Below, in pieces: positions 1 to 64,000 of a stretch of DNA of 64,000 bases. The notes beneath the pieces are model-generated. The model did not search any database. It was given only the letters and a program-made list of their open reading frames with translations, and was not told the origin of the DNA. The stretch's first letter is position 1, and each line of letters opens with the position of its first letter. The stretch spans positions 61,664,001-61,728,000 of the forward strand of contig CP086569.2 of assembly GCA_009914755.4 (NCBI GenBank). The letters are read 5' to 3'. The translations under genes and the position numbers were made by a program. The stretch is from the human T2T-CHM13v2.0 reference genome, Homo sapiens.

Positions 1-3000
1 CAATGCAATCAAATGGCATGGAATAAAATAGAATGAAAGAGAATCAAACGGAATTGAATCGAATGGAATCGAATGGATTGGAAAGGAATAGAATGGAATG
101 GAATGGAATTGACTCAAATGGAATGGACTAGAATGGAATGGATTCGAATGGAAGGCAAAGGAATGGAATCTATTGGAATGGACTGTAATGGAATGGAATG
201 GAAGGGATTGGAATGGACTCGAATGGAATGGACTGCAATAGAAAGGATTCGAATGGAATGAAAAAGAATTGAATGGAATAGAACAGAATGGAATCAAATC
301 GAATGAAATGGAATGGAATAGAAAGGAATGGAATGAAATGGAATGGAAAGGATTCGAATGGAATGCAATCGAATGGAATGGAATCGAACGGAATGTAATA
401 AAATGGAAGAAAACTGGCAAGAAATGGAATCGAAATGAATGGAGTGTTATGGAACGGACTCAAAAGGAATTGAATGTAATAGAATGGAGTGGAGTGGACT
501 CGAATATAATGGACTGGAATGGAATGAAATCACATGGAATGGGAACGAATGGAATGGAATGGAAAGGAATGGAATGGAATGGAAAGGAATCGAATGGAAG
601 GGAATGAAATTGAATCAACAGGAATGGAAGGGAGTAGAATAGACGGTAATGGAATGGACTCGAATAGAATGCACACGAATGCTCAAATTGAATGGACTCG
701 AATGGAATGGAAACGAAAGGAATGTCATCGAATGGAATTGAATCGATTGGAATGAAATCGCATAGAATGCAGTGGAATCAAATGGAATTGAATCGAAAGG
801 AAAGGAAGGGAATGGACTGAAATGAAATGGAATGGAATTGAATGGAAAGTAATGCAATGGAATAGAATGGAACGAAATTTCACGGAATGGAATCAAACTG
901 AATGGAATCAAATCAATGGAATATAATCAAATGGAATGGAAAGGAATTGAATGGAGTAGATTGGATTGGATGGGATTGGAATGAAATTTACTGGAAAGGA
1001 CTCGAATTTCATGAAACGGAATGGAATGAATTGGAACGGAATGGACTCGAATGGAATGGAATGTCATGGAATGGCATCAAACGGAATGCCATCAAATGGA
1101 ATGGAATCGAATGCAATGGAATGCTATGGAATGGAATGGAATGCATTGGAATGGAATGTCCTCTAACGGAATGGATTCGGGTGGAATGGAATCGAATATA
1201 ATGGAGTCGAATGAAATGGAATTGAAAGGAATGGGATCGAATACAATGGAACATACTGGAATGTAACGTAATGAACTCGAATGTAATTGACTGGAATGGA
1301 ATGTACATGAATGGAATGTAATCGAATGGAAAGTAATCCAATGGAATAGAATCTAATGCAATAAAATCGACTGTAATAGAATAGAATGTAATGGAATGGA
1401 GAGCAGTGCAATGGAATGGAATGGAACGGAATGCAATGGAATGGAATGGAATGGAATGGAATGCAATGGGATGGAATGGTATGGAATGGATAGTAATGGA
1501 CTGGAGTGAAATGGACTGGAAAGGAATGGACTCAAATTGAAAGGGCTCGAAAGGAATGGAGTCAAATGGAATGGTCTGGAATGGAATGAACACGAATGTA
1601 ATGCAATCCAATAGAATGGAATCGAATGGCATGGAATATAAAGAAATGGAATCGAAGAGAATGGAAACAAATGGAATGGAATTGAATGGAATGGGAACGA
1701 ATGGAGTGAAATTGTATGCAGTAGAAGAGAATAGAATGGAATGCAAGCGAAAGGAAAGGAATGGATTGGAATGGAATGGAATTCATTGGAATGGAAGGGA
1801 ATGTAGTGTAATGGACAGGCCTGGAATAAAGTGGAATGCTACGGTCTCGAATGGAATAAAAATGTATGGAATGGAATGCAATGAAACGGAATCGAATGTC
1901 ATAGAATGTAATGGAATGCAAAAAAATGGACACCAAAATCATTGACTGGAAAGGCTGGGTGTCGAAAGGAATTGACTCCAATGGAATGGAATCGAATGGA
2001 ATGGAAGTGAATAGAATCGAACTAAATCGAATGGAATGGAATTGATAGGAACGGAATAGAAAGGAATGCAATGATTTGGCATGGAATGGAATCGAATGGC
2101 ATCGAATGGAATGGAATGGAATGCAATGGAATGGAATGTATTAGAATGTAATGAACTTTAATGGAATGTACTCGAATGGATTCGACTGGAATGGAATGTT
2201 CTGGAAGTGAATGGACTCCAATGGAATGGATTCGAAAGGAATGGAATCGTACGGAATGGTAACCAATGGAATGGAATTAAATGGAAATGAATCAAATTGA
2301 ATAGAACGGAATTGAATTGAATGGAATCGAATGCAATGGAATCTAATGAAACGGAAAGGAAAGGAATGGAATGGAATGGAATGGGCTGGAATGGAATGGA
2401 ATCGAAACGAATGGAATGGAATCGAACTGAAGAGACTGGAATGGAATGCACTGGAATGGAAGGGAGTGTAATGGAAGGTTCTCGAAAAAAATGGAAACGA
2501 ATGGAATGGAATTGAATGGAACGGAATAGAGTCGAATGGAATTGAATGGAATGGAATGGACTAGAGTGAAATGGAATCGAACCACAAGGAATGGACAGGA
2601 ATAGAATGGTCTCGAATTGAATGGAATCGTATGGAATGGCATCAAACGGAATGGAATGGACAGCCACGGAATGGAATGTACTCGAATGCAATGGAGTCGA
2701 AACTAATGGACTGGAATAGAATGGACTCGACTGGTACGGACTCCAATGGAATGGAATCGAATGGAAGGGAATCGAACGGAATGGACTCGAAGGGAAAAGA
2801 CTGCAATGGAAAGGTCTCGAATGGAATGGAAATTAATGGAATGGAATGGAATCGAATGAAATGGAGTCAAAAGGAATGGAATCGAATGGCAAGAAATCGA
2901 ATGTAATGGAATCGCAAGGAATTGATGTGAACGGAACGGAATGGAATGGAATCCAAAGGAATGGAATAGAATGGAATGGAATCGAATGGAAAGGACTCGA

Positions 3001-3524
3001 ATGGAAATCACTCGAATAGAATGCAATTTAATAAAATAGGATCAAATGTAATGGAATGGAATGGAAAGGAATCGAAACGAAAGGAATGGAGACAGATGGA
3101 ATGGAATGGAACAGAGAGCAATGGTATAGAATGGAATGGAATCATCTGGAATGGAATTGAATGGAATGGAATAACATGAAATGGAATGGAATGCCCTTGA
3201 ATTAAATGGACTGGAATGGAGTGGACTCGAACAGAGTGGAATGGAAAGTGTTGAAATAGAATGGAATGGACTCCTTTGGAATGGTCTAGTATGCAATGCA
3301 ATCGACTGGCAGGGAATCAAAAGGAATGTAATCGAATGGATTGGACTGGAATGCAATGGACTCGAATAGATTGGAAACGGAATGCAAAGGAATGGAATGG
3401 AATAGTATGGAATGGAATGGAAAGGAATGGAGTGGAATAGACTAGAGTGGAATGGAATGGACTCAAAAGCAATGGACTGGAATGGAACTTTCTTGAATGG
3501 ACTGGAATCAAACGGAATGGAATG
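1..3524. repeat. DYZ1/HSat3 HOR copy 1 (3524 bp; phase arbitrarily started at caatgcaatcaaatggcatgg)
   Basis: The window start string recurs at 3525. The copy is 25 bp shorter than the modal unit. It lacks 15 bp (3 pentamers) near 1690 and 10 bp (2 pentamers) near 3170 relative to copy 2. Confidence 0.85.
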
Positions 3525-6500
3525 CAATGCAATCAAATGGCATGGAATAAAATAGAATGAAAGAGAATCAAACGGAATTGAATCGAATGGAATCGAATGG
3601 ATTGGAAAGGAATAGAATGGAATGGAATGGAATTGACTCAAATGGAATGGACTAGAATGGAATGGATTCGAATGGAAGGCAAAGGAATGGAATCTATTGG
3701 AATGGACTGTAATGGAATGGAATGGAAGGGATTGGAATGGACTCGAATGGAATGGACTGCAATAGAAAGGATTCGAATGGAATGAAAAAGAATTGAATGG
3801 AATAGAACTGAATGGAATCAAATCGAATGAAATGGAATGGAATAGAAAGGAATGGAATGAAATGGAATGGAAAGGATTCGAATGGAATGCAATCGAATGG
3901 AATGGAATCGAACAGAATGTAATAAAATGGAAGAAAACTGGCAAGAAATGGAATCGAAATGAATGGAGTGTTATGGAACGGACTCAAAAGGAATTGAATG
4001 TAATAGAATGGAGTGGAGTGGACTCGAATATAATGGACTGGAATGGAATGAAATCACATGGAATGGGAACGAATGGAATGGAATGGAAAGGAATGGAATC
4101 AAATGGAAAGGAATCGAATGGAAGGGAATGAAATTGAATCAACAGGAATGGAAGGGAATAGAATAGACGGTAATGGAATGGACTCGAATAGAATGCACAC
4201 GAATGCTCAAATTGAATGGACTCGAATGGAATGGAAACGAAAGGAATGTCATCGAATGGAATTGAATCGATTGGAATGAAATCGCATAGAATGCAGTGGA
4301 ATCAAATGGAATTGAATCGAAAGGAAAGGAAGCGAATGGACTGAAATGAAATGGAATGGAATTGAATGGAAAGTAATGCAATGGAATAGAATGGAACGAA
4401 ATTTCACGGAATGGAATCAAACTGAATGGAATCAAATCAATGGAATATAATCAAATGGAATGGAAAGGAATTGAATGGAGTAGATTGGATTGGATGGGAT
4501 TGGAATGAAATTTACTGGAAAGGACTCGAATTTCATGAAACGGAATGGAATGAATTGGAACGGAATGGACTCGAATGGAATGGAATGTCATGGAATGGCA
4601 TCAAACGGAATGGCATCAAATGGGATGGAATCGAATGCAATGGAATGCTATGGAATGGAATGGAATGCATTGGAATGGAATGTCCTCTAATGGAATGGAT
4701 TCGGGTGGAATGGAATCGAATATAATGGAGTCGAATGAAATGGAATTGAAAGGAATGGGATCGAATACAATGGAATATACTGGAATGTAACGTAATGAAC
4801 TCGAATGTAATTAACTGGAATGGAATGTACATGAACGGAATGTAATGGAATGGAAAGTAATCCAATGGAATAGAATCTAATGCAATAAAATTGACTGTAA
4901 TAGAATAGAATGTAATGGAATGGAGTGCAGTGCAATGGAATGGAATGGAATGGAATGCAATGGAATGGAATGGAATGGAATGGAATGCAATGGGATGGAA
5001 TGGTATGGAATGGATAGTAATGGACTGGAGTGAAATGGACTGGAAAGGAATGGACTCAAATTGAAAGGGCTCGAAAGGAATGGAGTCAAATGGAATGGTC
5101 TGGAATGGAATGAACACGAATGTAATGCAATCCAATAGAATGGAATCGAATGGCAAGGAATATAAAGAAATGGAATCGAAGAGAATGGAAACAAATGGAA
5201 TGGAATTGAATGGAATGGAATTGAATGGAATGGGAACGAATGGAGTGAAATTGTATGCAGTAGAAGAGAATAGAATGGAATGCAAGCGAAAGGAAAGGAA
5301 TGGATTGGAATGGAATGGAATTCATTGGAATGGAAGGGAATGTAGTGTAATGGACAGGCCTGGAATAAAGTGGAATGCTACGGTCTCGAATGGAATAAAA
5401 ATGTATGGAATGGAATGCAATGAAACGGAATCGAATGTCATAGAATGTAATGGAATGCAAAAAAATGGACTCCAAAATCATTGACTGGAAAGGCTGGGTG
5501 TCGAAAGGAATTGACTCCAATGGAATGGAATCGAATGGAATGGAAGTGAATAGAATCGAACTAAATCGAATGGAATGGAATTGATAGGAACGGAATGGAA
5601 AGGAATGCAATGATTTGGCATGGAATGGAATCGAATGGCATAGAATGGAATGGAATGGAATGCAATGGAATGGAATGTATTAGAATGTAATGAACTTTAA
5701 TGGAATGTACTCGAATGGATTCGACTGGAATGGAATGTTCTGGAAGTGAATGGACTCCAATGGAATGGATTCGAAAGGAATGGAATCGTACGGAATGGTA
5801 TCCAATGGAATGGAATTAAATGGAAATGAATCAAATTGAATAGCACGGAATTGAATTGAATGGAATCGAATGCAATGGAATCTAATGAAACGGAAAGGAA
5901 AGGAATGGAATGGAATGGAATGGGCTGGAATGGAATGGAATCGAAACGAATGGAATGGAATCGAACTGAAGAGACTGGAATGGAATGCACTGGAATGGAA
6001 GGGAGTGTAATGGAAGGTTCTCGAAAAAAATGGAATCGAATGGAATGGAATTGAATGGAACGGAATAGAGTCGAATGGAATTGAATGGAATGGAATGGAC
6101 TAGAGTGAAATGGAATCGAACCACAAGGAATGGACAGGAATAGAATGGTCTCGAATTGAATGGAATCGTATGGAATGGCATCAAACGGAATGGAATGGAC
6201 AGCCACGGAATGGAATGCACTCGAATGCAATGGAGTCGAAACTAATGGACTGGAATAGAATGGACTCGACTGGTACGGACTCCAATGGAATGGAATCGAA
6301 TGCAAGGGAATCGAACGGAATGGACTCGAAGGGAAAAGACTGCAATGGAAAGGTCTCGAATGGAATGGAAATTAATGGAATGGAATGGAATCGAATGAAA
6401 TGGAGTCAAAAGGAAGGGAATCGAATGGCAAGAAATCGAATGTAATGGAATCGCAAGGAATTGATGTGAAAGGAACGGAATGGAATGGAATCCAAAGGAA

Positions 6501-7073
6501 TGGAATAGAATGGAATGGAATCGAATGGAAAGGACTCGAATGGAAATCACTCGAATAGAATGCAATTTAATAAAATAGGATCAAATGTAATGGAATGGAA
6601 TGCAAAGGAATCGAAACGAAAGGAATGGAGACAGATGGAATGGAATGGAACAGAGAGCAATGGTATAGAATGGAATGGAATCATCTGGAATGGAATTGAA
6701 TGGAATGGAATAACATGAAATGGAATGGAATGGAATGGAATGCCCTTGAATTAAATGGACTGGAATGGAATGGACTCGAACAGAGTGGAATGGAAAGTGT
6801 TGAAATAGAATGGAATGGACTCCTTTGGAATGGTCTAGTATGCAATGCAATCGACTGGCAGGGAATCAAAAGGAATGTAATCGAATGGATTGGACTGGAA
6901 TGCAATGGACTCGAATAGATTGGAAACGGAATGCAAAGGAATGGAATGGAATAGTATGGAATGGAATGGAAAGGAATGGAGTGGAATAGACTACAGTGGA
7001 ATGGAATGGACTCAAAAGCAATGGACTGGAATGGAACTTTCTTGAATGGACTGGAATCAAACGGAATGGAATG
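3525..7073. repeat. DYZ1/HSat3 HOR copy 2 (3549 bp)
   Basis: Anchor ORF recurs at 3597 and 7146 (offset 3549). Confidence 0.85.
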
Positions 7074-10000
7074 CAATGCAATCAAATGGCATGGAATAAA
7101 ATAGAATGAAAGAGAATCAAACGGAATTGAATCGAATGGAATCGAATGGATTGGAAAGGAATAGAATGGAATGGAATGGAATTGACTCAAATGGAATGGA
7201 CTAGAATGGAATGGATTCGAATGGAAGGCAAAGGAATGGAATCTATTGGAATGGACTGTAATGGAATGGAATGGAAGGGATTGGAATGGACTCGAATGGA
7301 ATGGACTGCAATAGAAAGGATTCGAATGGAATGAAAAAGAATTGAATGGAATAGAACAGAATGGAATCAAATCGAATGAAATGGAATGGAATAGAAAGGA
7401 ATGGAATGAAATGGAATGGAAAGGATTCGAATGGAATGCAATCGAATGGAATGGAATCGAACGGAATGTAATAAAATGGAAGAAAACTGGCAAGAAATGG
7501 AATCGAAATGAATGGAGTGTTATGGAACGGACTCAAAAGGAATTGAATGTAATAGAATGGAGTGGAGTGGACTCGAATATAATGGACTGGAATGGAATGA
7601 AATCACATGGAATGGGAACGAATGGAATGGAATGGAAAGGAATGGAATGGAATGGAAAGGAATCGAATGGAAGGGAATGAAATTGAATCAACAGGAATGG
7701 AAGGGAGTAGAATAGACGGTAATGGAATGGACTCGAATAGAATGCACACGAATGCTCAAATTGAATGGACTCGAATGGAATGGAAACGAAAGGAATGTCA
7801 TCGAATGGAATTGAATCGATTGGAATGAAATCGCATAGAATGCAGTGGAATCAAATGGAATTGAATCGAAAGGAAAGGAAGCGAATGGACTGAAATGAAA
7901 TGGAATGGAATTGAATGGAAAGTAATGCAATGGAATAGAATGGAACGAAATTTCACGGAATGGAATCAAACTGAATGGAATCAAATCAATGGAATATAAT
8001 CAAATGGAATGGAAAGGAATTGAATGGAGTAGATTGGATTGGATGGGATTGGAATGAAATTTACTGGAAAGGACTCGAATTTCATGAAACGGAATGGAAT
8101 GAATTGGAACGGAATGGACTCGAATGGAATGGAATGTCATGGAATGGCATCAAACGGAATGGCATCAAATGGGATGCAATCGAATGCAATGGAATGCTAT
8201 GGAATGGAATGGAATGCATTGGAATGGAATGTCCTCTAATGGAATGGATTCGGGTGGAATGGAATCGAATATAATGGAGTCGAATGAAATGGAATTGAAA
8301 GGAATGGGATCGAATACAATGGAATATACTGGAATGTAACGTAATGAACTCGAATGTAATTAACTGGAATGGAATGTACATGAACGGAATGTAATCGAAT
8401 GGAAAGTAATCCAATGGAATAGAATCTAATGCAATAAAATTGACTGTAATAGAATAGAATGTAATGGAATGGAGTGCAGTGCAATGGAATGGAATGGAAT
8501 GGAATGCAATGGAATGGAATGGAATGGAATGGAATGCAATGGGATGGAATGGTATGGAATGGATAGTAATGGACTGGAGTGAAATGGACTGGAAAGGAAT
8601 GGACTCAAATTGAAAGGGCTCGAAAGGAATGGAGTCAAATGGAATGGTCTGGAATGGAATGAACACGAATGTAATGCAATCCAATAGAATGGAATCGAAT
8701 GGCAAGGAATATAAAGAAATGGAATCGAAGAGAATGGAAACAAATGGAATGGAATTGAATGGAATGGAATTGAATGGAATGGGAACGAATGGAGTGAAAT
8801 TGTATGCAGTAGAAGAGAATAGAATGGAATGCAAGCGAAAGGAAAGGAATGGATTGGAATGGAATGGAATTCATTGGAATGGAAGGGAATGTAGTGTAAT
8901 GGACAGGCCTGGAATAAAGTGGAATGCTACGGTCTCGAATGGAATAAAAATGTATGGAATGGAATGCAATGAAACGGAATCGAATGTCATAGAATGTAAT
9001 GGAATGCAAAAAAATGGACTCCAAAATCATTGACTGGAAAGGCTGGGTGTCGAAAGGAATTGACTCCAATGGAATGGAATCGAATGGAATGGAAGTGAAT
9101 AGAATCGAACTAAATCGAATGGAATGGAATTGATAGGAACGGAATGGAAAGGAATGCAATGATTTGGCATGGAATGGAATCGAATGGCATCGAATGGAAT
9201 GGAATGGAATGCAATGGAATGGAATGTATTAGAATGTAATGAACTTTAATGGAATGTACTCGAATGGATTCGACTGGAATGGAATGTTCTGGAAGTGAAT
9301 GGACTCCAATGGAATGGATTCGAAAGGAATGGAATCGTACGGAATGGTATCCAATGGAATGGAATTAAATGGAAATGAATCAAATTGAATAGCACGGAAT
9401 TGAATTGAATGGAATCGAATGCAATGGAATCTAATGAAACGGAAAGGAAAGGAATGGAATGGAATGGAATGGGCTGGAATGGAATGGAATCGAAACGAAT
9501 GGAATGGAATCGAACTGAAGAGACTGGAATGGAATGCACTGGAATGGAAGGGAGTGTAATGGAAGGTTCTCGAAAAAAATGGAATCGAATGGAATGGAAT
9601 TGAATGGAACGGAATAGAGTCGAATGGAATTGAATGGAATGGAATGGACTAGAGTGAAATGGAATCGAACCACAAGGAATGGACAGGAATAGAATGGTCT
9701 CGAATTGAATGGAATCGTATGGAATGGCATCAAACGGAATGGAATGGACAGCCACGGAATGGAATGCACTCGAATGCAATGGAGTCGAAACTAATGGACT
9801 GGAATAGAATGGACTCGACTGGTACGGACTCCAATGGAATGGAATCGAATGCAAGGGAATCGAACGGAATGGACTCGAAGGGAAAAGACTGCAATGGAAA
9901 GGTCTCGAATGGAATGGAAATTAATGGAATGGAATGGAATCGAATGAAATGGAGTCAAAAGGAATGGAATCGAATGGCAAGAAATCGAATGTAATGGAAT

Positions 10001-10622
10001 CGCAAGGAATTGATGTGAACGGAACGGAATGGAATGGAATCCAAAGGAATGGAATAGAATGGAATGGAATCGAATGGAAAGGACTCGAATGGAAATCACT
10101 CGAATAGAATGCAATTTAATAAAATAGGATCAAATGTAATGGAATGGAATGGAAAGGAATCGAAACGAAAGGAATGGAGACAGATGGAATGGAATGGAAC
10201 AGAGAACAATGGTATAGAATGGAATGGAATCATCTGGAATGGAATTGAATGGAATGGAATAACATGAAATGGAATGGAATGGAATGGAATGCCCTTGAAT
10301 TAAATGGACTGGAATGGAATGGACTCGAACAGAGTGGAAAGGAAAGTGTTGAAATAGAATGGAATGGACTCCTTTGGAATGGTCTAGTATGCAATGCAAT
10401 CGACTGGCAGGGAATCAAAAGGAATGTAATCGAATGGATTGGACTGGAATGCAATGGACTCGAATAGATTGGAAACGGAATGCAAAGGAATGGAATGGAA
10501 TAGTATGGAATGGAATGGAAAGGAATGGAGTGGAATAGACTAGAGTGGAATGGAATGGACTCAAAAGCAATGGACTGGAATGGAACTTTCTTGAATGGAC
10601 TGGAATCAAACGGAATGGAATG
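7074..10622. repeat. DYZ1/HSat3 HOR copy 3 (3549 bp)
   Basis: Anchor ORF recurs at 7146 and 10695. Confidence 0.85.
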
Positions 10623-13600: not shown

Positions 13601-14170
13601 AATAGAATGGAATGGAATCGAATGGAAAGGACTCGAATGGAAATCACTCGAATAGAATGCAATTTAATAAAATAGGATCAAATGTAATGGAATGGAATGG
13701 AAAGGAATCGAAACGAAAGGAATGGAGACAGATGGAATGGAATGGAACAGAGAGCAATGGTATAGAATGGAATGGAATCATCTGGAATGGAATTGAATGG
13801 AATGGAATAACATGAAATGGAATGGAATGGAATGGAATGCCCTTGAATTAAATGGACTGGAATGGAATGGACTCGAACAGAGTGGAATGGAAAGTGTTGA
13901 AATAGAATGGAATGGACTCCTTTGGAATGGTCTAGTATGCAATGCAATCGACTGGCAGGGAATCAAAAGGAATGTAATCGAATGGATTGGACTGGAATGC
14001 AATGGACTCGAATAGATTGGAAATGGAATGCAAAGGAATGGAATGGAATAGTATGGAATGGAATGGAAAGGAATGGAGTGGAATAGACTAGAGTGGAATG
14101 GAATGGACTCAAAAGCAATGGACTGGAATGGAACTTTCTTGAATGGACTGGAATCAAACGGAATGGAATG
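10623..14170. repeat. DYZ1/HSat3 HOR copy 4 (3548 bp; carries 1-bp deletion near 12377)
   Basis: Anchor ORF recurs at 10695 and 14243 (offset 3548). The string gaatagaatgaatgcaagcg replaces gaatagaatggaatgcaagcg, and this fuses two artefactual ORFs into a 358-aa one. Confidence 0.85.
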
Positions 14171-50037: not shown

Positions 50038-51507
50038 ATATATTTTTTAAATGAAAAAATATTTCAAAGGTATTCTGCTTGGTACAATAATCAAATATAT
50101 AAATTGAGGGATAAAACATAACCATGGAACATATTTATAACTGCATATGGAAAATACAGAGGATAATTTTTTAAATAACATATTTTGAAAGCATTAACTG
50201 GTAATTTGAAGAGTTGGCATTTGAAAGGCCAGTATGAATATACCTTCAAAGCAGCAACACAGGTTCCCCATGGGGAAAATCCAACTCAGGGAAAATAAAA
50301 CCACAAAGGTTCACTCTGTTCTGACCTTTGAAAAACACAGCACAGACAGTGGCCCTTAGGACCAAGAGGAGGAGATCCCTAATCCCGTCACCATGGCGAT
50401 AGGGCATAAACATTGCAGGATGAGGGCACAAAACACATTGAGAGGTCCAACTGCTGCCAGGAAGACAGGAGTGCTTTTACATAGACCCAAAGGTCATTGA
50501 AGGCTCAGTGTTTTGTTTCAAAAACTGAATCCCAAGCCCACACATAATTATGCTGCGCTTCTTAAAAAAAGTTATGACATGGGAAATAGGGCACCCACGA
50601 TTACATCTACACATTATGTATATAATAATATATAGAATCTTATATATAATATATGTAACATATATATATAATACTGTTTTACATCTTGCATTTATATTAT
50701 ATATATTATATGTATTATAATAACTGGTAATGTATAAGTATTATATTTATACACTATGATATATAATAATTATATTTTATGACATATATAATATATTTTA
50801 TATATCATATACAAAATATATTATATGGTTAATATACGTTTTAAATATATAATATACATTATATATATTATATCTACGTTATATGTAACATTCACTATAG
50901 ATAATATATATATTATATCTAGCTTATATATAATATAAAATAAAATATAATAATATATAATTGTATATACAAAATATGACATATAATATATATTATATAT
51001 TATGACATATATATGATATATATTATATATCATATATAATATGTTGTATGTATAATACATATATTAAATATATATTATATGTCTATGTTATTTATTATAT
51101 GTAATATATGTTATATATTACATATTTGACATAGAATACATGTGTTACATAGAATATATTCTATGTTACATATAACGTAGAATTTATTATATGTAGTATA
51201 ATGTATGTCATATATTATAAATACTTTATAATATACAATATGTGGAATGTGATATATATAACATGTAATATATGATATATGATATACAATATAAGATATA
51301 TAACATACAATATATGATACATAATATATATGGTATACAATATATATTTTATGTTATATATTATATAAGTTTTATATTTTATTATATATAACTATTTAAA
51401 ATTATATATAACTGTATAATATTATACGTAAATATAAAATATAATATATATAACCATATATTATGTTATATATTATTTTATTACATACTTTCCATAATAT
51501 ATCATAT
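49742..51507. repeat. DYZ2 unit 10, partial (diverged edge variant; truncated at unit phase ~1765 by the DYZ1 junction)
   Basis: Alu starts at 49742 and the ORF anchor sits at 50246. The AT-rich core ends at ...ccataatatatcatat|ggactctttggaatgg. Confidence 0.8.
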
Positions 51508-54422: not shown

Positions 54423-57400
54423 CAATGCAATCAAACGGAATGGAATAAAATAGAATGAAAGAGAATCAAATGGCATTGAATCGAAAGGAATCGAACGGAT
54501 TGGAAAGGAATAGAATGGAATGGAATGGAATTGACTCAAATGGAATGGAATAGAATGGAATGGAGTCGAATGGAAGGCAAAGGAATGGAATCTATTGAAA
54601 TGGGCTGTAATGGAATGGAATGGAAGGGATTGGAATGGACTCGAATGGAATAGACTACAATAGAAAGGATTCGAATGGAATGAAAAAGAATTGAATGGAA
54701 TAGAACAGAATGCAATCAAATCGAATGAAATGGAATGGAATAGAAAGGAATGGAATGAAATGGAATGGAAAGGATTCGAATGGAATGCAATCGAACGGAA
54801 TGTAATCGAACGCTATGAAATAAAATGGAAGAAAACTGGCAAGAAATGGAATCGAAATGAATGGACTGTTATGGAATGGACACAAAGGGAATTGAATGTA
54901 ATGGAATGGAGTGGAGTGGACTCGAATATAATGGACTGGGATGGAATGGAATCACATGGAATGGGAACGAATGGAATGGAATGAAAAGGAATGGAATCGA
55001 ATGGAAAGAAATCGAATGAAACGGAATGAAATTGAATCAACAGGAATGGAAGGGATTAGAATAGAGTGGAATGGAATGAACTCGAATAGAAAGACACGAA
55101 TGCTCAAATTGAATGGACTCGAATGGAATGGAAACGAAAGGAATGTCATCGAATGGAATTGAATCGATTGGAATGAAATTGCATAGAATGGAGTGGAATC
55201 AAATGGAATTGAATCGAATAGAAAGGAAGCGAATGGACTGAAATGAAATGGAATGGAACTGAATGGAAAGTAATGCAATGGAATAGAATGGAACGAAATT
55301 TCACGGAATGAAATCAAACAGAATGGAATCAAATCAATGGAATATAATCAAATGGAATGGAATGGAATGGAAAGGAATGGAATGGAATACATTGGATTGG
55401 AAGGGATTGGAATGAAATGGAATGGAAAGGACACGAATTTCGTGAAACGGAATGGAATGAATTGGAATGGAATGGACTCGAATGGAATGGAATGTCATGG
55501 AATGGCATCAAATGGAATGGAATCAAATGGAATGGAATCGAATGCAATGGAATGTTATGGAATGGAATGGAATGTATTGGAATGGAATGTCCTCTAATGG
55601 AATGGATTCGAGTGGAATGGAATCGAACATAATGGAGTTGAATGAAATGGAATTGAAAAGAACGGGATCGAATAGAATGGAATATACTGGAATGTAATGT
55701 AATGAAGTCGAATATAATTGACTGGAATGGAATGTACATGAATGGAATGTAATCGAATGGAAAGTAATCCAAAGCAATAGAATCTAATGCAATAAAATCG
55801 ACTGAAATGAAATAGAATGCAATGGAATGGAGTGCAGTGCAATGGAAAGGAAAGGAATGGAATGCAATGGATTGGAATGGAATGGAATGGAATGGAATGG
55901 AAAGGAATGTAATGGAATGGAATGCAATGGAATAGGATGGAATGGAATGGATAGTAATGGACTGGAGTGAAATGGACTGGAAAGGAATAGACTCAAATCG
56001 AAAGGGCTCGAAAGGAATGGAGTCAAATGAAATGGTCTGGAATGGAATGAACTCGAATATAATGCAATCCAATAGAATGGAATCGAATGGAATGGAATAT
56101 AAAGAAATGGAATCGACGAGAATGGAAACAGATGGAATGGAATTGAATGGAATGGAATTGAATGGAATGGGCAGGAATGGAATGAAATTGTATGGAATAG
56201 AAGAGAATAGAATGGAAAGCAATGGATAAGAAAGGAATGGATTGGAATGGAAGGGAATGTAGTGTAATGGACTGGCATGGAATAAACTGGAATGCTACGG
56301 TCTCGAATGGAATAAAAATGTATGGAAAGGAATGCAATGAAACGGAATCGAATGTCATAGAATGTAATGGAATGCAAAAAAATGGAGTCCAAAATCATTG
56401 ACTGGAAAGGCTGGGTGTCGAAAGGAATTGACTCCAATGGAATGGAATCAAATGGAATGGAAGTGAATAGAATCGAACTAAATCGAATGGAATGGAATTG
56501 ATAGGAAGGGAATGGAAAGGAATGGAATGATTTGGCATGGAATGGAATCGAATGGACTCGAATGGAATGGAATGGAATGCAATGGAATGGAATGTATTAG
56601 AATGTAATGAACTTTAATGGAATGCACTCGAATGGATTAGACTGGAACGGAATGTTCTGGAAGTGAATGGACTCCAATGGAATGGATTCAAAAGGAATGG
56701 AAACGAACGGAATGGAATCTAATGAAATGGAATTAAATGTAAAGGAATCAAATCGAATAGCACAGAATTGAATTGAATGGAATCGAATGCAATGGAATCT
56801 AATGAAACGGAAAGGAAAGGAATGGAATGGAATGGAATGGGCTGGAATGGAATGGAATCGAAACGAATGGAACGGAATAGAACTGAAGAGACTTGAATGG
56901 AATGCACAGGAATGGAAGGGAGTGTAATTGAAGGTTCTCGAAAAGACTGGAATCGAATGGAATGGAATTGAATGGAACGGAATAGAGTCGAATGGAATTG
57001 AATGGAATGGAATGGAGTAGAGTGAAATGGAATCGAGTCACAAGGAATGGACAGGAATAGAACGGTCTCGAATTGAATGGAATCATATGGAATGGAATCC
57101 AACGGAATGGAATGGACAGCAACGGAATGGAATGCACTCGAATGCAATGGAGTCGAAACTATTGGAATGGAATAGAATGGACTCGACTGGTACGGACTCC
57201 AATGGAATGGAATCGAAGGGAATGGAATCGAAAGGAATGGACTCGAAGTGAAAAGACTGCAATAGAAAGGTCTCGAATGGAATGGAAATTAATGGAATGG
57301 AATGGAATCGAATGACATGGAGTCAAAAGGAATGGAATCGAATGGCAAGAAAACGAATGTAATGGAATCGCAAGGAATGGATGTGAACGGAACGGAATGG

Positions 57401-57995
57401 AATGAAATCAAAAGGAATGGAATAGAATGGAATGGAAACGAATGGAATGGACTAGAATGGAAATGACTCGAATAGAATGGAATTTAACAAAATAGAATCA
57501 TATGTAAAGGAATGGAATGGAAAGGAATCGAAACGAAAGGAATGGAGACAGATGGAATGGAATGGAACAGAGAGCAATGGTATATAATGGAATGGAATCA
57601 TATGGAATGGAATTGAATGGAATGGAATAATATGAAATGGAACGGAAAGGAATGGAATGCACTTGAATTAAAGGGACTGGAATGGAATGGACTCGAACGG
57701 AGTGGAATGGAAAGGATTGAAATAGAATGGAAAGGACTCCTTTGGAATGGTCTAGTATGCAATGCAAACGACTGGCAGGGAATCAAAAGGAATGTAATCG
57801 AATGGATTGGACTGGAACACAATGGACTCGAATACATTGGAAACAGAATGCAATGGAATGGAATGGAATAGTATGGAATGGAACGGAAAGGAATGAAGTA
57901 GAATGGACTAGAGTGGAATGGAATGGACTCGAAAGCAATGGACTGGAATGGAACGATCTTGAATGGACCGAAATCAAACGGAACGGAATGCAATG
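54423..57995. repeat. HSat3/DYZ1-type HOR copy, right array (3573 bp variant)
   Basis: The phase-start string caatgcaatcaaacggaatggaataaaatagaatgaaagagaatc sits at 54423. The next phase start is at 57996. Confidence 0.75.
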
Positions 57996-60900
57996 CAAGG
58001 CAATCAAATGGAATGGAATAAAAGAGAATGAAAGAGAATCAAATGCAATTGAATCGAATGGAATCGAATGGATTGGAAAGGAATAGAATGGAATGGAATG
58101 GAATTGACTCAAATGGAATGGACTAGAACGGAATGGAGTCGAATGGAAGGCAAAGGAATGGAATCTATTGGAATGGACTGTAATGGAATGGCATGGAAGG
58201 GATTGGAATGGACTCGAATGGAAAGGACTGCAATAGAAAGGATTCGAATGGAATGAAAAAGAATTGAATGGAATAGAACAGAATGGAATCAAATCGAATG
58301 AAATGGAATGGAATAGAAAGGAATGGAATTAAATGGAATGGAAAGGATTCAAATGGAATGCAATCGAACGGAATGCAATCGAATGGAATGGAATCGAACG
58401 GAATGGAATAAAATGGAAGGAAACTGGCAAGAAATGGAATCGAAATGAATGGAGTGTTATGGAACGGACTCAAAAGGAATTGAATGTAATAGAATGGAGT
58501 GGAGTGGACTCGAATATAATGGACTGGAATGGAATGGAATCACATGGAATGGGAACGAATGGAATGGAATGGAAAGGAATGGAATCGAATGGAAAGGAAT
58601 CAAATGGAAGGGAATGAAATTGAATCAACAGGAATGGAAGGGAATAGAATAGAGTGTAATGGAATGGACTCGAATAGAATGGACACGAATGCTCAAATTG
58701 GATGGACTCGAATGGAATGGAAACGAAAGGAATGTCATCGAATGGAATTGAATCGATTGGAATGAAATGGCATAGAATGGAGTGGAATGAAATGGAATTG
58801 AATCGAAAGGAAAGGAAGCGAATGGACTGAAATGAAATGGAATGGAATTGAATGGAAAGTAATGCAATGGAATAGAATGGAACGAAATTTCACGGAATGG
58901 AATCAAACAGAATGGAATCAAATCAATGGAATATAATCAAATGGAATGGAATGGAATGGAAAGGAATTGAATGGAATAGATTGGATAGGAAGGGATTGGA
59001 ATGCAATGGAATGGAAAGGACTCGAATTTCATGAAACGGAATGGAATGAATTGGAATGGAATGGACTCGAATGGAATGGAATGTCATGGAATGGCATCAA
59101 ATGGAATGGCATCGAATGCAATGGAATGTTATGGAATGGAATGGAATGTATTGGAATGGAATGTCCTCTAATGGAATGGATTCGAGTGGAATGGAATCGA
59201 ATATAATGGAGTCGAATGAAATGGAATTGAAAGGAATGGGATCGAATAGAATGGAATATACTGGAATGTAATGTAATGAAGTCGAATGTAATTGACTGGA
59301 ATGGAATGTACATGAATGGAATGTAATCGAATGGAAAGTAATCCAATGAAATAGAATCTAATGCAATAAAACCGACTCAAATGGAATAGAATGTAATGGA
59401 ATGGAGTGCAGTGCAATGGAATGGAATGGAATGGAATGGAATGGAGTGGAATGGAATGGAATGGGATGGAATGGTATGGAATGGATAGTAAAGGACTGGA
59501 GTGAAATGGACTGTAAAGGAATGGACTCCAATTGAAAGGGCTCGAAAGGAATGGAGTCAAATGGAATGGTCTGGAATGGAATGAACTCGAATGTAATGCA
59601 ATCCAATAGAATGGAATCGAATGGAATGGAATATAAAGAAATGGAATCGACGAGAATGGAAACAGATGGAATGGAATTGAAAGGAATGGAATTGAATGGA
59701 ATGGGCATGAATGGAATGAAATTGTATGGAATAGAAGAGAATAGAATGGAATGCAATGGATAAGAAAGGAATGGATTGGAATGGAAGGGAATGTAGTGTA
59801 ATGGACTGGCATGGAATAAACTGCAATGCTACGGACTCAAATGGAATAAAAATGTATGGAATGGAATGCCATGAAACGGAATCGAATGTCATAGAATGTA
59901 ATGGAATGCAAAAAAATGGACTCCAAAATCATTGACTGGAAAGGCTGGGTGTCGAAAGGAATTGACTCCAATGGAATGGAATCGAATGGAACGGAAGTGA
60001 ATAGAATCGAACTAAATCGAATGGAATGGAATTGATAGGAACGGAATGGAAAGGAATGGAATGATTTGGCATGGAATGGAATCGAATGGACTCGAATGGA
60101 ATGGAATGGAATGCAATGCAATGGAATGTATTAGAATGTAGTGAACTTTAATGGAATGAACTCGAATGGATTCGACTGGAATGGAATGTTCTGGAAGTGA
60201 ATGGACTCCAATGGAATGGATTCAAAAGGAATGGAATCGAAGGGAATGGAATCTAATGGAATGGAATGAAATGGAAAGGAATCAAATCGAATAGCACGGA
60301 ATTGAACTGAATGGAATCGAATGCAATGGAATCTAATGAAACGGAAAGGAAAGGAATGGAATGGCATGGAATGGGCTGGAATGGAATGGAATCGAAACGA
60401 ATGGAAAGGAATCGAACTGAAGAGACTGGAATGGAATGCACTGGCATGGAAGGGAGTTTAATGGAAGGTTCTCGAAAAGACTGGAATCGAATGCAATGGA
60501 ATTGAATGGAACGGATATAGAGTCAAATGGAATTGAATGGAATGGAATGGAGTAGAGTGAAATGGAATCGAGTCACAAGGAATGGACAGGAATAGAACGG
60601 TCTCGAATTGAATGGAATCGTATGGAATGGAATTCAACGGAATGGAATGGACAGCCACGGAATGGAATGCACTCGAATGCAATGGACTCGAAACTAATGG
60701 ACTGGAATCGAATGGACTCGACTGGTACGGACTCCAATGGAATGGAATCGAATGGAATGGAATCGAACGGAATGGACTCGAAGTGAAAAGAGTGCAATGG
60801 AAAGGTCTCGAATGGAATGGAAATTAATGCAATGGAATGGAATCGAATGAAATGGAGTCAAAAGGAATGGAATCGAATGGCAAGAAATCGAATGTAATGG

Positions 60901-61514
60901 AATCACAAGGAATGGATGTGAACGGAACGGAATGGAATGGAATCAAAAGGAATGGAATCGAATGGAATGGACTCGAATGGAAATGACTCGAATAGAATGG
61001 AATTCAACAAAATAGAATCAAATGAAATGGAATGGAATGGAAAGGAATCGAAACGAAAGGAATGGAGACAGATGGAATGGAATGGAACAGAGAACAATGG
61101 TATATAATGGAATGGAATCATATGGAATGGAATTGAATGGAATGGAATAATATAAAATGGAATGGAAAGGAATGGAATGCACTTGAATTAAATGGACTGG
61201 AATGGAATGGACTCGAACGGAGTGGAATGGAAAGGATTGAAATAGAATGGAATGGACTCCTTTGGAATGGTCTAGTATGCAATGCAAACGACTGGCAGGG
61301 AATCAAAAGGAATGTAATCGAATGGATTGGCCTGGAATCAATGGACTCGAATACATTGGAAACGGAATGCAATGGAATGGAATGGAATAGTATGGAATGG
61401 AACGGAAAGGAATGAAGTAAAATGGACTAGAGTGGAATGTAATGGACTCGAAAGCAATGGACTGGAATGGAACGATCTTGAATGGACCGGAATCAAACGG
61501 AAAGGAATGCAATG
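57996..61514. repeat. HSat3/DYZ1-type HOR copy, right array (3519 bp)
   Basis: The phase-start string caaggcaatcaaatggaatggaataaaagagaatg occurs at 57996 and 61515. Confidence 0.8.
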
Positions 61515-64000
61515 CAAGGCAATCAAATGGAATGGAATAAAAGAGAATGAAAGAGAATCAAATGCAATTGAATCGAATGGAATCGAATGGATTGGAAAGG
61601 AATAGAATGGAATGGAATGGAATTGACTCAAATGGAATGGACTAGAACGGGATGGAGTCGAATGGAAGGCAAAGGAATGGAATCTATTGGAATGGACTGT
61701 AATGGAATGGCATGGAAGGAATTGGAATGGACTCGAATGGAAAGGACTGCAATAGAAAGGATTCGAATGGAATGAAAAAGAATTGAATGGAATAGAACAG
61801 AATGGAATCAAATCGAATGAAATGGAATGGAATAGAAAGGAATGGAATGAAACGGAATGGAAAGGATTCAAATGGAATGCAATCGAATGGAATGCAATCG
61901 AATGGAATGGAATCGAACGGAATGGAATAAAATGGAAGGAAACTGGCAAGAAATGGAATCGAAATGAATGGAGTGTTATGGAACGGACTCCAAAGGAATT
62001 GAATGTAATAGAATGGAGTGGAGTGGACGCGAACATAATGGACTGGAATGGAATGGAATCACATGGAATGGGAACGAATGGAATGGAATGGAAAGGAATG
62101 GAATCGAATGGATAGGAATCAAATGGAAGGGAATGAAATTGAATCAACAGGAATGGAAGGGAATAGAATAGACTGTAATGGAATGGACTCGAATAGAATG
62201 GACACGAATGCTCAAATTGGATGGACTCGAATGGAATGGAAACGAAAGGAATGTCATCGAATGGAATTGAATCGATTGGAATGAAATGGCATAGAATGGA
62301 TTGGAATGAAATGGAATTGAATCGAAAGGAAAGGAAGCGAATGGACTGAAATGAAATGGAATGGAATTAAATGGAAAGTAATGCAATGGAATAGAATGGA
62401 ACGAAATTTCACGGAATGGAATCAAACAGAATGGAATCAAATCAATGGAATATAATCAAATGGAATGGAATGGAATGGAAAGGAATTGAATGGAATAGAT
62501 TGGATAGGAAGGGATTGGAATGCAATGGAATGGAAAGGACTCGAATTTCATGAAACGGAATGGAATGAATTGGAATGGAATGGACTCGAATGGAATGGAA
62601 TGTCATGGAATGGCATCAAATGGAATGGAATCAAATGGAATGGCATCGAATGCAATGGAATGTTATGGAATGGAATGGAATGTATTGGAATGGAATGTCC
62701 TCTAATGGAATGGATTCGAGTGGAATGGAATCAAATATAATGGAGTCGAATGAAATGGAATTGAAAGGAATGGGATCGAATAGAATGGAATATACTGGAA
62801 TGTAATGTAATGAAGTCGAATGTAATTGACTGGAATGGAATGTACATGAATGGAATGTAATCGAATAGAAAGTAATCCAATGAAATAGAATCTAATGCAA
62901 TAAAACCGACTCAAATGGAATAGAATGTAATGGAATGGAGTGCAGTGCAATGGAATGGAATGGAATGGAATGCAATGGAGTGGAATGGAATGGAATGGGA
63001 TGGAATGGTATGGAATGGATAGTAAAGGACTGGAGTGAAATGGACTGTAAAGGAATGGACTCCAATTGAAAGGGCTCGAAAGGAATGGAGTCAAATGGAA
63101 TGGTCTGGAATGGAATGAACTCGAATGTAATGCAATCCAATAGAATGGAATCGAATGGAATGGAATATAAAGAAATGGAATCGACGAGAATGGAAACAGA
63201 TGGAATGGAATTGAAAGGAATGGAATTGAATGGAATGGGCACGAATGGAATGAAATTGTATGGAATAGAAGAGAATAGAATGGAATGCAATGGATAAGAA
63301 AGGAATGGATTGGAATGGAAGGGAATGTAGTGTAATGGACTGGCATGGAATAAACTGGAATGCTACGGTCTCAAATGGAATAAAAATGTATGGAATGGAA
63401 TGCCATGAAACGGAATCGAATGTCATAGAATGTAATGGAATGCAAAAAAATGGACTCCAAAATCATTGACTGGAAAGGCTGGGTGTCGAAAGGAATTGAC
63501 TCCAATGGAATGGAATCGAACGGAATGGAAGTGAATAGAATCGAACTAAATCGAATGGAATGGAATTGATAGGAACGGAATGGAAAGGAATGGAATGATT
63601 TGGCATGGAATGGAATCGAATGGACTCGAATGGAATGGAATGGAATGCAATGCAATGGAATGTATTAGAATGTAGTGAACTTTAATGGAATGAACTCGAA
63701 TGGATTCGACTGGAATGGAATGTTCTGGAAGTGAATGGACTCCAATGGAATGGATTCAAAAGGAATGGAATCGAAGGGAATGGAATCTAATGGAATGGAA
63801 TGAAATGGAAAGGAATCCAATCGAATAGCACGGAATTGAATTGAATGGAATCGAATGCAATGGAATCTAATGAAACGGAAAGGAAAGGAACGGAATGGCA
63901 TGGAATGGGCTGGAATGGAATGGAATCGAAACGAATGGAATGGAATCGAACTGAAGAGACTGGAATGGAATGCACTGGCATGGAAGGGAGTTTAATGGAA
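61515..64000. repeat. HSat3/DYZ1-type HOR copy, right array (partial, runs off window)
   Basis: This copy is near-identical to 57996-60480. Its ORF pairs are offset by 3519 or 3534. Confidence 0.8.

What the first reader, a model, noticed from the sequence alone, without database searches (positions are those of the whole stretch)
1..64000. Two distinct DYZ1 sub-families flank the DYZ2 block
The left copies (period 3549) are near-identical to each other. The right copies (periods 3519 and 3573) differ from the left type by roughly 3-5% on a sampled segment, for example 4 aa-level differences across a 186-bp anchor. They carry distinct indels but are near-identical to each other (57996-61514 vs 61515-64000). 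Orientation is the same on both sides, so the block is not at an inversion breakpoint. Adjacent DYZ1 blocks belonging to different sub-families implies that homogenisation acts within blocks, and that DYZ2 blocks act as barriers to it.
Basis: seen in the sequence. Interest (0 to 1): 0.55.

Follow-up and report, generated by a model that had tools for sequence, protein, structure and literature searches.

The report
Divergent DYZ1 repeats around small DYZ2 block
This is ordinary human Y-chromosome long-arm heterochromatin: a young, uniform DYZ1 satellite array meets an older, poorly homogenised zone (a small DYZ2 block plus variant DYZ1 copies), the centre-uniform, edge-diverged pattern already described from complete Y assemblies.

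Summary
The measurements largely hold. Left DYZ1 units L1-L7 differ from each other by 0.3-1.5% (substitutions). Right units differ from them by 4.2-5.9%, or 6-7% with indels. All units have the same orientation. R2 and R3p differ by 0.97%.

"Two sub-families separated by DYZ2" is too simple, for four reasons.
- **The right flank is not uniform.** R1 is 4.1-4.8% from R2/R3p. The unit next to DYZ2 is degenerate, with a ~670 bp deletion and a second half only 76% identical to the consensus.
- **The type switch is not at the DYZ2 block.** The last 1.07 kb of left-side DYZ1 (25726-26795) carries 16 of 33 right-type diagnostic substitutions and groups with the right units at 100% bootstrap.
- **The left type is the common one.** It lies ~1% from a consensus built from independent human-contaminant contigs. 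The right type lies 3.7-5.1% away, lacks the unit-defining HaeIII site, and appeared in 0 of 45 external copies.
- **The DYZ2 block is itself old.** It is 24.7 kb, its units differ by 1-4%, and its right-edge units by 9-13%.

Nested private variants in the left array support local homogenisation. Hallast et al. 2023 and Rhie et al. 2023 already report arrays that are uniform in the middle and diverged at the ends. Verdict: real, ordinary, already known.

The parts
1..25725 (+). Left DYZ1 (HSat3A6-type) array: units L1-L7 plus the first 898 bp of L8p. This is the near-canonical, recently homogenised type.
   Evidence: Periods are 3524-3554 bp. L1-L7 differ by 0.34-1.45% pairwise and lie 1.0-1.3% from an external consensus of human-contaminant DYZ1 contigs. 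Each unit has one HaeIII site, giving 3515-3569 bp fragments, and an exact 154-bp primer-pair site. Private variants are nested by position.
25726..26795 (+). Junction-proximal 1.07 kb of DYZ1 (unit positions 899-1992 of L8p). It is an older variant related to the right-flank type.
   Evidence: It is 4.0% from the consensus, against 1.4% for the first 898 bp of the same unit (p=6e-4). It carries 16 of 33 right-type fixed substitutions, all at window 25726-26654. Bootstrap support for grouping with R1-R3p is 100%. It lacks both right-type diagnostic indels.
26796..51505 (+). DYZ2 (HSat1B-type) block of 24,710 bp, about 10.2 units of 2407-2415 bp, all in one orientation.
   Evidence: Searches give the period and strand. 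GC is 0.20-0.27. Each unit has a ~0.9 kb GC-richer part (0.24-0.58 GC) and a ~1.5 kb part at 4-20% GC. Units D1-D8 differ by 1.0-4.2% and the left partial unit by 3.8-5.7%. Junction sequences were read.
47293..51505 (+). The two right-edge DYZ2 units (D9 and D10p), strongly diverged.
   Evidence: They are 8.6-13% from the other DYZ2 units and 7.7% from each other. BLAST identity is about 89%. D9 contains a degenerate TA-rich tract at 48304-49637.
51506..51763 (+). A 258-bp tail of a DYZ1 unit (consensus positions 3301-3559) directly after the DYZ2-to-DYZ1 junction.
   Evidence: It is 97.3% identical to the external consensus and 92% to R1/R2.
51764..54422 (+). R0p, a degenerate and internally deleted DYZ1 unit of about 2.7 kb.
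   Evidence: Window 51744-53350 matches consensus 41-1712 at 91%. Window 53302-54417 matches consensus 2384-3559 at only 76%, against an out-of-register background of about 68%. This implies a deletion of about 670 bp.
54423..57995 (+). R1, a variant DYZ1 unit of 3573 bp.
   Evidence: It is 5.0-5.2% from the consensus, 5.5-5.9% from the left units and 4.1-4.8% from R2/R3p. It has 64-65 private substitutions in the R3p span, or 83 over the full unit. It has no HaeIII site.
57996..64000 (+). R2 (3519 bp) and R3p (partial, cut by the window end), a near-identical pair of variant DYZ1 units.
   Evidence: They differ from each other by 0.97%. They are 3.6-4.0% from the consensus and 4.2-4.6% from the left units. 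They share 27 substitutions not found in R1. The canonical HaeIII site is absent; R2 has one GGCC elsewhere, at 61329.

Best explanation
The window is human Yq12 heterochromatin. A small, old DYZ2 (HSat1B) block sits between two DYZ1 (HSat3A6) arrays in the same orientation.

The left 25.7 kb is the interior-type part of a DYZ1 array. It has been recently homogenised, by inference through unequal sister-chromatid exchange, local tandem duplication or gene conversion. Its units are about 99% alike and close to the pan-individual DYZ1 consensus.

Everything from about 25.7 kb rightwards is older sequence that this homogenisation has not overwritten:
- the last 1.07 kb of left DYZ1;
- the DYZ2 block;
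- a degenerate DYZ1 unit;
- three variant DYZ1 units.

The variant DYZ1 on both sides of the DYZ2 block shares diagnostic substitutions. The DYZ2 block therefore lies within one old DYZ1 variant context, and the young array ends at a fairly sharp switch inside DYZ1. R2 and R3p are a recent local duplication within the old lineage.

**Shown:** the divergence values, the shared variants, the position of the switch and the nesting of private variants. **Inferred:** the exchange mechanism and the relative ages.
For: **Identity**
- A ~3.55 kb GGAAT-based unit at 38-40% GC alternates with a 2.41 kb unit at 20-27% GC.
- This matches the published descriptions: DYZ1 about 3.5 kb and 38% GC, DYZ2 about 2.4 kb and 24% GC, in alternating arrays (Hallast et al., 10.1101/2022.12.01.518658; Rhie et al., 10.1101/2022.12.01.518724).
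- HaeIII fragments of 3515-3569 bp occur in the left array.
- Thirty-nine external contigs match. They are contaminants in bacterial assemblies and metagenomes, one of them a contig labelled human gut metagenome. Every contig that aligned to the DYZ1 units is closer to the left type than to the right type.

**Young against old**
- L1-L7 lie 1.0-1.3% from the external consensus. L8p is 1.4% away, then 4.0% after unit position 899. R3p is 3.7%, R2 3.9% and R1 5.1% away. R0p is 91% identical in its first half and 76% in its second.
- DYZ2 units differ by 1-4% from each other, and by 9-13% at the right edge.

**Shared old lineage across the block**
- L8p carries 16 of 33 right-type fixed sites, against 2 of 33 in L7.
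- Bootstrap support for {L8p,R1,R2,R3p} is 100% in unit positions 899-1992 and 0% in positions 1-898.

**Local homogenisation**
- Private variants are nested: L1-L7 share 8 sites, L1-L6 share 4, L1-L5 share 5.
- Indels are nearly all multiples of 5 bp, which fits pentamer slippage rather than sequencing error.

**Prior literature**
- Hallast section 14 says that units near the middle of an array are more alike than those at its ends, for both DYZ1 and DYZ2, and attributes this to expansion and contraction in array interiors.
- Rhie attributes Yq12 structure to unequal exchange and reports sister-chromatid exchanges there.
Against: - Only about 12.5 kb of the right array is visible. I cannot tell whether it later becomes canonical or stays the variant type.
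- L8p lacks both right-type indels. Its raw distance to R2 in the distal part (5.3%) exceeds its distance to the consensus (4.1%). The relationship is deep, and some shared states could be retained ancestral states rather than shared derived ones.
- The right units are not CpG-depleted relative to the consensus, at 104-105 against 101 CpGs. One simple signature of greater age is therefore absent.
- The external "consensus" comes mainly from collapsed short-read contigs and is biased towards the majority type.
- No complete Y assembly was available, so the window could not be placed on the chromosome.
Confidence: 0.8

Rival explanations
1. Two discrete, separately homogenised DYZ1 sub-families occupy the two arrays, and the DYZ2 block is the barrier that stops exchange between them.
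For: - Inter-flank divergence is 4.2-5.9%, against 0.3-1.5% within the left array and 0.97% for R2/R3p.
- Thirty-five to forty substitutions and two indels are fixed in all right units and absent from L1-L7.
- Bootstrap support for the right clade is 100%.
- The right units lack the canonical HaeIII site and both primer sites.
Against: - R1 is 4.1-4.8% from R2/R3p and R0p is degenerate, so the visible right flank is not a homogenised family.
- The type switch lies 1.07 kb left of the DYZ2 junction, and L8p's distal part groups with the right units.
- No right-type copy appeared among 45 external matches to the diagnostic 26-mer.
- The DYZ2 block is itself diverged.
Confidence: 0.15
2. The two flanks were brought together by a larger rearrangement, such as a multi-block segmental duplication, deletion or insertion of a DYZ1-DYZ2 composite. 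On this view the difference reflects different places of origin and not in-situ evolution at this junction.
For: - Rhie et al. report iterative tandem duplications of up to 5 Mb spanning several DYZ1/DYZ2 blocks.
- A 2026 preprint (PMC13252187) finds that Yq12 size changes mainly by gain and loss of whole arrays.
- The two junctions fall at unrelated unit phases: DYZ1 position ~1992 into DYZ2, and DYZ2 into DYZ1 position 3301.
- An independent external contig (L019) has a DYZ1-to-DYZ2 junction at a different position.
Against: - L8p's distal part shares variants with the right flank. This suggests that both sides of the DYZ2 block belong to one old context rather than to unrelated sources.
- No breakpoint signature was seen other than the switch near 25.7 kb.
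- This rival is compatible with the best explanation if the rearrangement is old.
Confidence: 0.05

Closest known systems
Human Yq12 DYZ1 (HSat3A6) / DYZ2 (HSat1B) alternating arrays, as described in T2T-Y (Rhie et al. 2023) and in 43 Y assemblies (Hallast et al. 2023)
   Same: - Unit sizes of about 3.55 kb and 2.41 kb, GC of 38-40% and 20-27%, and a pentamer-derived DYZ1 all match.
- DYZ2 has the AT-rich plus GC-richer layout.
- Arrays alternate in one orientation.
- Units are more alike away from array ends and more diverged at the ends.
- The left units are about 99% identical to an independent DYZ1 consensus.
   Different: - The DYZ2 block is only 24.7 kb. This is near the bottom of the published ranges of 11 kb-2.2 Mb (Hallast) and 20-1,200 kb (T2T-Y).
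- Its units are less alike (1-4%, edges 9-13%) than the "over 98% identical" reported for most units.
- The right-hand DYZ1 units are 3.7-5.1% from the consensus and lack the HaeIII site used to define the unit.
Centromeric alpha-satellite HOR arrays, with a homogeneous core and divergent monomeric or old layers at the periphery
   Same: Both show a gradient or step from near-identical interior repeats to diverged edge repeats, explained by exchange acting in array interiors. Hallast et al. draw this parallel themselves.
   Different: - The satellite family is different.
- The neighbour here is another satellite array and not monomeric layers.
- No kinetochore function is involved.
The 2.7 kb DYZ1/DYZ18-derived repeat at the Yq11/Yq12 boundary (Hallast et al. 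2023)
   Same: R0p is about 2.7 kb long and partly DYZ1-like.
   Different: - R0p is a single unit and not an array.
- Only about 61% of it is clearly DYZ1-like, at 91% identity. The published repeat is 77% DYZ1-like at 97%.
- The rest of R0p aligns weakly (76%) to the in-register DYZ1 tail.
- No DYZ18 sequence was available for testing. I treat the resemblance as coincidence of length.

Membership tests
DYZ1 / HSat3A6 | Tandem unit of about 3.5-3.6 kb built from diverged GGAAT/CATTC pentamers | tested here: met
   TRF finds the pentamer-based arrays. Periods are 3519-3579 bp, on both flanks.
DYZ1 / HSat3A6 | One HaeIII (GGCC) site per unit, giving fragments of about 3.56 kb. Hallast et al. 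define units by virtual HaeIII digestion. | tested here: inconclusive
   Met in the left array, with fragments of 3515-3569 bp. Not met on the right: R0p, R1 and R3p have no GGCC, and R2 has one at a different position, 61329.
DYZ1 / HSat3A6 | High identity (published as mostly >98%) to the DYZ1 consensus | tested here: inconclusive
   The comparison used an external consensus from five independent contaminant contigs. Left units lie 1.0-1.3% from it and meet the criterion. L8p (2.9%), R2/R3p (3.7-3.9%) and R1 (5.1%) are below the typical range.
DYZ1 / HSat3A6 | Location in Yq12 of the human Y chromosome | not testable with these tools
   No human assembly is searchable. Indirect support: contigs about 99% identical occur as contaminants in bacterial assemblies and in a human gut metagenome.
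DYZ2 / HSat1B | Tandem unit of about 2.4 kb at about 24% GC, with an extremely AT-rich part and a GC-richer part | tested here: met
   Periods are 2407-2415 bp. GC is 0.20-0.27. Within a unit, about 0.9 kb runs at 0.24-0.58 GC and about 1.5 kb at 0.04-0.20 GC.
DYZ2 / HSat1B | Contains an ancient truncated AluY fragment | tested here: inconclusive
   There is only a weak Rfam hit to mir-1268 at 28168-28234 on the minus strand (30.9 bits, E=0.0036, below the gathering score). From my own knowledge mir-1268 is Alu-derived. There is no SRP/Alu hit at gathering threshold.
   Thirty-five to forty substitutions are fixed in R1, R2 and R3p and absent from L1-L7. So are a 10-bp insertion at unit position 933 and a 20-bp deletion at 1790. 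Bootstrap support is 100%.
   R2 and R3p differ by 0.97%, but R1 differs from R2/R3p by 4.1-4.8% and R0p from all units by about 12%.
   L8p at unit positions 899-1992 (window 25726-26795), left of DYZ2, carries 16 of 33 right-type sites. It groups with the right units at 100% bootstrap.
   None of 45 external matches to the diagnostic 26-mer carries the right-type state, and a right-type-specific scan of viral contigs found nothing. The sample is biased towards collapsed majority-type contigs, so this is weak evidence.

The most novel reading that the evidence does not exclude
DYZ2 blocks in Yq12 may be embedded in an ancient DYZ1 variant lineage that survives only as thin rinds on both sides of each block. 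On this reading, the canonical DYZ1 type is a later expansion that has overwritten array interiors up to sharp conversion or exchange breakpoints about 1 kb from the junctions. Junction-proximal units across the chromosome would then form their own clade. They would record the original DYZ1/DYZ2 juxtaposition events and could be used to reconstruct the order in which the blocks (86 in T2T-Y) were duplicated.
Probability: 0.2. Interest if true: 0.35.

Novelty: already known. Interest (0 to 1): 0.15.

Why it matters
The finding matters little beyond confirming a published pattern. Satellite arrays on Yq12 are homogenised in their interiors and diverge at their edges, and arrays differ from one another.

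There are two small practical points:
- Variant DYZ1 units such as R1-R3p lack the HaeIII site and both sites of the classic 154-bp primer pair. Classical DYZ1 assays would not count them.
- Junction-proximal units share variants across a DYZ2 block. If that holds generally, they could serve as markers for reconstructing Yq12 block history in complete assemblies.

Tried and rejected
1. **Rfam on the whole window at gathering threshold.** No hit. At E<=1 on one DYZ2 unit there was only a weak mir-1268 hit, so the Alu fragment of DYZ2 could not be confirmed.
2. **Literature search for the two classical DYZ1 primer sequences.** No papers in the held library. The primer identity (Y1.1/Y1.2, 154 bp) therefore rests on my memory. 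What is shown here is only that both 23-mers occur exactly once per left unit, 154 bp apart outer edge to outer edge, and not at all on the right.
3. **CpG-decay test for greater age of the right units.** Null result. The right units have 104-105 CpGs against 101 in the consensus, and transitions are only 35-44% of changes.
4. **First NJ tree.** It grouped external contig x016 (L016) with L8p. This was an artefact of partial overlap. The first 1968 bp of x016 are canonical (0.1-0.2% from the consensus) and its second part is 14.6% diverged, probably chimeric. I excluded it.
5. **Same junction in another contig?** External contig L019 (BNJU01004413.1) does not carry the window's left junction or the L8p/right-type variants. 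Its DYZ1 ends near unit position 1200-1300, against 1992 here, and it joins a different DYZ2 phase. Only one reliably aligned shared site was found.
6. **Mosaic break in L8p from right-type fixed sites alone.** Not significant (0 of 4 before position 899, 16 of 29 after; p=0.10), because the right lineage has few fixed sites in the first 898 bp. The break rests instead on the divergence step (p=6e-4) and on region-wise bootstrap.
7. **R0p as the published 2.7 kb repeat.** Considered and set aside, because its composition does not match and it is a single unit. No DYZ18 sequence was available to test it.
8. **One BLAST script timed out.** I reran it with a larger word size.

Full report
**What is in the window**

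Base composition splits the window into three parts. Positions 1 to about 26.8 kb and about 51.5-64 kb have 38-40% GC and a strong positive GC skew. The middle part has 20-27% GC and no skew.

Tandem Repeats Finder reports GGAAT-pentamer arrays at 12-26626 and 51516-64000. A 24-mer recurrence analysis gives periods of 3519-3579 bp in the outer parts and 2407-2415 bp in the middle.

In-register BLAST hits define the DYZ1-type units:

| Unit | Window coordinates | Note |
|---|---|---|
| L1 | 1-3524 | |
| L2 | 3525-7073 | |
| L3 | 7074-10622 | |
| L4 | 10623-14170 | |
| L5 | 14171-17719 | |
| L6 | 17720-21273 | |
| L7 | 21274-24827 | |
| L8p | 24828-26795 | partial |
| R0p | 51534-54422 | degenerate |
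| R1 | 54423-57995 | |
| R2 | 57996-61514 | |
| R3p | 61515-64000 | cut by the window end |

The middle part holds 9 full and 2 partial units of 2.41 kb at 26796-51505. All hits are on the plus strand. The junctions can be read directly at 26795/26796 and 51505/51506.

**Identity**

- The unit sizes, GC contents and alternation match published descriptions of human Yq12. DYZ1/HSat3A6 is about 3.5 kb, pentamer-derived and 38% GC. DYZ2/HSat1B is about 2.4 kb and 24% GC, with an AT-rich part, an Alu fragment and an HSATI part (Hallast et al., 10.1101/2022.12.01.518658; Rhie et al., 10.1101/2022.12.01.518724).
- A virtual HaeIII digest gives one site per left unit, with fragments of 3515-3569 bp. 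HaeIII is the enzyme Hallast et al. use to define DYZ1 units.
- Scans of public bacterial genome assemblies and metagenomes with a 26-37 nt DYZ1 pattern returned 39 contigs. They are evidently human contamination, and one is a contig labelled human gut metagenome.
- Five contigs that contain a complete DYZ1 unit, four of them unit-length and all from different samples, are 0.1-0.3% apart. I used them as an independent DYZ1 consensus of 3559 bp.

Substitution-only divergence from a MAFFT alignment:

| Comparison | Divergence |
|---|---|
| L1-L6 against each other | 0.34-1.08% |
| L7 against L1-L6 | 1.25-1.45% |
| L8p against the other left units | 3.2-3.6% |
| R2 against R3p | 0.97% |
| R1 against R2/R3p | 4.1-4.8% |
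| Left units against R2/R3p | 4.2-4.6% |
| Left units against R1 | 5.5-5.9% |
| R0p against all | about 12% |

With gaps, the left reference unit is 92.9-93.8% identical to the right units.

The periods, the common orientation, the R2/R3p near-identity and a clear inter-flank difference are all confirmed. Two things are not confirmed: the right copies are not uniformly alike, and the left flank is not uniform up to the junction. NJ bootstrap is 100% for {R1,R2,R3p} and for {L1-L6}, and 80% for {L1-L7}.

**Which type is the common one**

- Every external contig that aligned is closer to the left type (mostly 96-99% where the contig is of good quality) than to the right type (mostly 90-95%).
- Distances from the external consensus are: L1-L7 1.0-1.3%, L8p 2.9%, R3p 3.7%, R2 3.9%, R1 5.1%.
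- All 45 external matches to a diagnostic 26-mer that allowed either type carry the canonical state. None carries the right-type state. A right-type-specific scan of viral contigs found nothing.
- The right units lack the canonical HaeIII site. They also lack both 23-mers of what I recall as the classical 154-bp DYZ1 PCR assay. Those 23-mers occur exactly once in each of L1-L7.

The left array is therefore ordinary bulk DYZ1, and the right units are a minority variant. One caveat applies: collapsed short-read contigs are biased towards the majority type.

**Where the switch lies**

- L8p is a mosaic relative to the consensus. It has 13 substitutions in unit positions 1-898 (1.4%) and 44 in positions 899-1992 (4.0%; Fisher p=6e-4).
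- Thirty-three sites in the L8p span are fixed in R1, R2 and R3p and differ from the consensus. L8p carries the right-type state at 16 of them, all at window 25726-26654. L7 carries it at 2 (p=2e-4).
- Region-wise NJ bootstrap for {L8p,R1,R2,R3p} is 100% in positions 899-1992 and 0% in positions 1-898.
- L8p lacks the two right-type indels, a 10-bp insertion at 933 and a 20-bp deletion at 1790. It also has about 30 private changes. It is therefore a deep relative of the right type and not a copy of it.

The change from canonical to old-variant DYZ1 thus lies about 1.07 kb to the left of the DYZ2 block. Variant DYZ1 on both sides of the block is related.

**The right junction and the DYZ2 block are old too**

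- After the DYZ2-to-DYZ1 junction comes a 258-bp unit tail (consensus 3301-3559) at 97.3% identity.
- R0p follows. Its first half is 91% identical to the consensus. It has an internal deletion of about 670 bp. Its second half is only 76% identical, against an out-of-register background of about 68%.
- DYZ2 units D1-D8 differ by 1.0-4.2%. The left partial unit differs by 3.8-5.7%. The two right-edge units differ by 8.6-13% from the rest.
- These values are well above the "over 98% identical" reported for most Yq12 units.

**Evidence for local homogenisation**

- Substitutions that distinguish the left units from the external consensus are nested by position. Eight are shared by L1-L7, four by L1-L6 and five by L1-L5. 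There are also 59 singletons. This is the pattern expected if variants spread by local duplication or exchange within an array interior.
- Indels are almost all multiples of 5 bp, as expected for pentamer slippage and not for sequencing error.

**Interpretation**

The best reading is a young, homogenised array interior (1 to about 25.7 kb) abutting an old edge zone that was never overwritten. That zone comprises the distal part of L8p, the small DYZ2 block, R0p and R1-R3p. R2/R3p are a recent local duplication within it.

The inference that the DYZ2 block is the barrier between two discrete sub-families is not:
- the switch lies inside DYZ1;
- the visible right flank is heterogeneous;
- the DYZ2 block is as diverged as its neighbours.

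The window ends 12.5 kb into the right array. I cannot say whether that array becomes canonical further on or is a long variant array.

**Comparison with what is known**

Hallast et al. state that in both DYZ1 and DYZ2 arrays, units near the middle are more similar to each other than to units at the ends. They attribute this to expansion and contraction in array interiors. They add that arrays in the middle of Yq12 are more alike than peripheral arrays. Rhie et al. report slightly higher divergence in peripheral blocks and evolution by unequal exchange. A 2026 preprint (PMC13252187) adds that Yq12 changes mainly by gain and loss of whole arrays and shows gene-conversion-like de novo events. 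The finding is a local instance of this published pattern.

**Verdict**

The feature is real. The phenomenon is already known, and interest is low. The only mildly new detail is that junction-proximal DYZ1 on both sides of one small DYZ2 block shares variants. Testing whether that is general needs a complete Y assembly.

Noticed in passing
L001-L006 (genome-contig scan), e.g. BMRF01000076.1, BNBB01000077.1, BMTN01000077.1, NZ_JBFAJD010000109.1, CALPCJ010000043.1, CAYVXY010000078.1: Species-representative bacterial assemblies contain contigs that are 97-99% identical to human DYZ1. They include Actinomadura cremea JCM 3308, Streptosporangium violaceochromogenes JCM 3281, Streptomyces kurssanovii JCM 4388, a Streptomyces sp., a Senimuribacter sp. 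and a Polyangiaceae MAG. This is human male DNA contamination in public genomes. Two of the contigs are about one DYZ1 unit long (3604 and 3637 bp), as expected from a collapsed repeat.
   Followed up: partly
window 1682-23143 (each of L1-L7) versus 51506-64000: Two 23-mers that I recall as the classical 154-bp DYZ1 PCR primers occur exactly once in each of L1-L7, 154 bp apart outer edge to outer edge. In L8p one of the two is still exact (at 26505); the other is mutated there. Neither occurs in any right unit, where the second site has 3 mismatches. The unit-defining HaeIII site is lost in the same stretch of the right units. Classical assays would not detect the right-type units. The primer identity could not be confirmed in the held literature.
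   Followed up: partly
window 1-17719 (L1-L5): Non-adjacent left units are the closest pairs: L1-L4 at 0.48% (98% bootstrap) and L2-L5 at 0.45%. Some 24-mers recur at 10,622 bp, which is three units. This hints at a three-unit (about 10.6 kb) duplication step within the array.
   Followed up: no
L019 (BNJU01004413.1) about 4200-4400: An independent long contig from a metagenome assembly has a DYZ1-to-DYZ2 junction at a different place in both repeats. DYZ1 ends near unit position 1200-1300, against 1992 in the window. Its DYZ1 is canonical to within a few hundred bp of the junction. DYZ1/DYZ2 junctions are therefore not all copies of one event.
   Followed up: partly
L013, L027 (BNJU01001848.1): A 52-kb metagenome contig carries DYZ1-like units that are 4.4%, 7.5% and 11.4% from the consensus. 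They are not related to the window's right type. Other divergent DYZ1 lineages therefore exist, though some of the difference may be long-read error.
   Followed up: no
window 28275-50351 (DYZ2 HaeIII sites): DYZ2 units fall into HaeIII variants. D1-D3 and D10p have five GGCC sites, including one 124 bp after the 204-bp fragment. D4-D8 have four, and D9 has three. Sub-blocks within the small DYZ2 array thus share variants, which matches the distance clusters D1-D3, D4-D5 and D6-D8.
   Followed up: no
window 38656-38881 and 45891-46116; 48304-49637: TRF reports a 103-bp internal tandem duplication (2.2 copies) in the AT-rich part of two DYZ2 units three units apart. It also reports a degenerate TTATATA/TA tract of about 1.3 kb in the diverged unit D9.
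   Followed up: no
window 28168-28234 (minus strand): There is a weak Rfam match to mir-1268 (30.9 bits, E=0.0036, below the gathering score of 83) in the GC-richer part of a DYZ2 unit. It is probably the ancient Alu fragment described for HSat1B and not a miRNA gene.
   Followed up: no
window 51764-54422: The degenerate unit R0p is about 2.7 kb long, the same length as the DYZ1/DYZ18-derived 2.7 kb repeat reported at the Yq11/Yq12 boundary. Its composition does not match well, and no DYZ18 sequence was available for testing.
   Followed up: no
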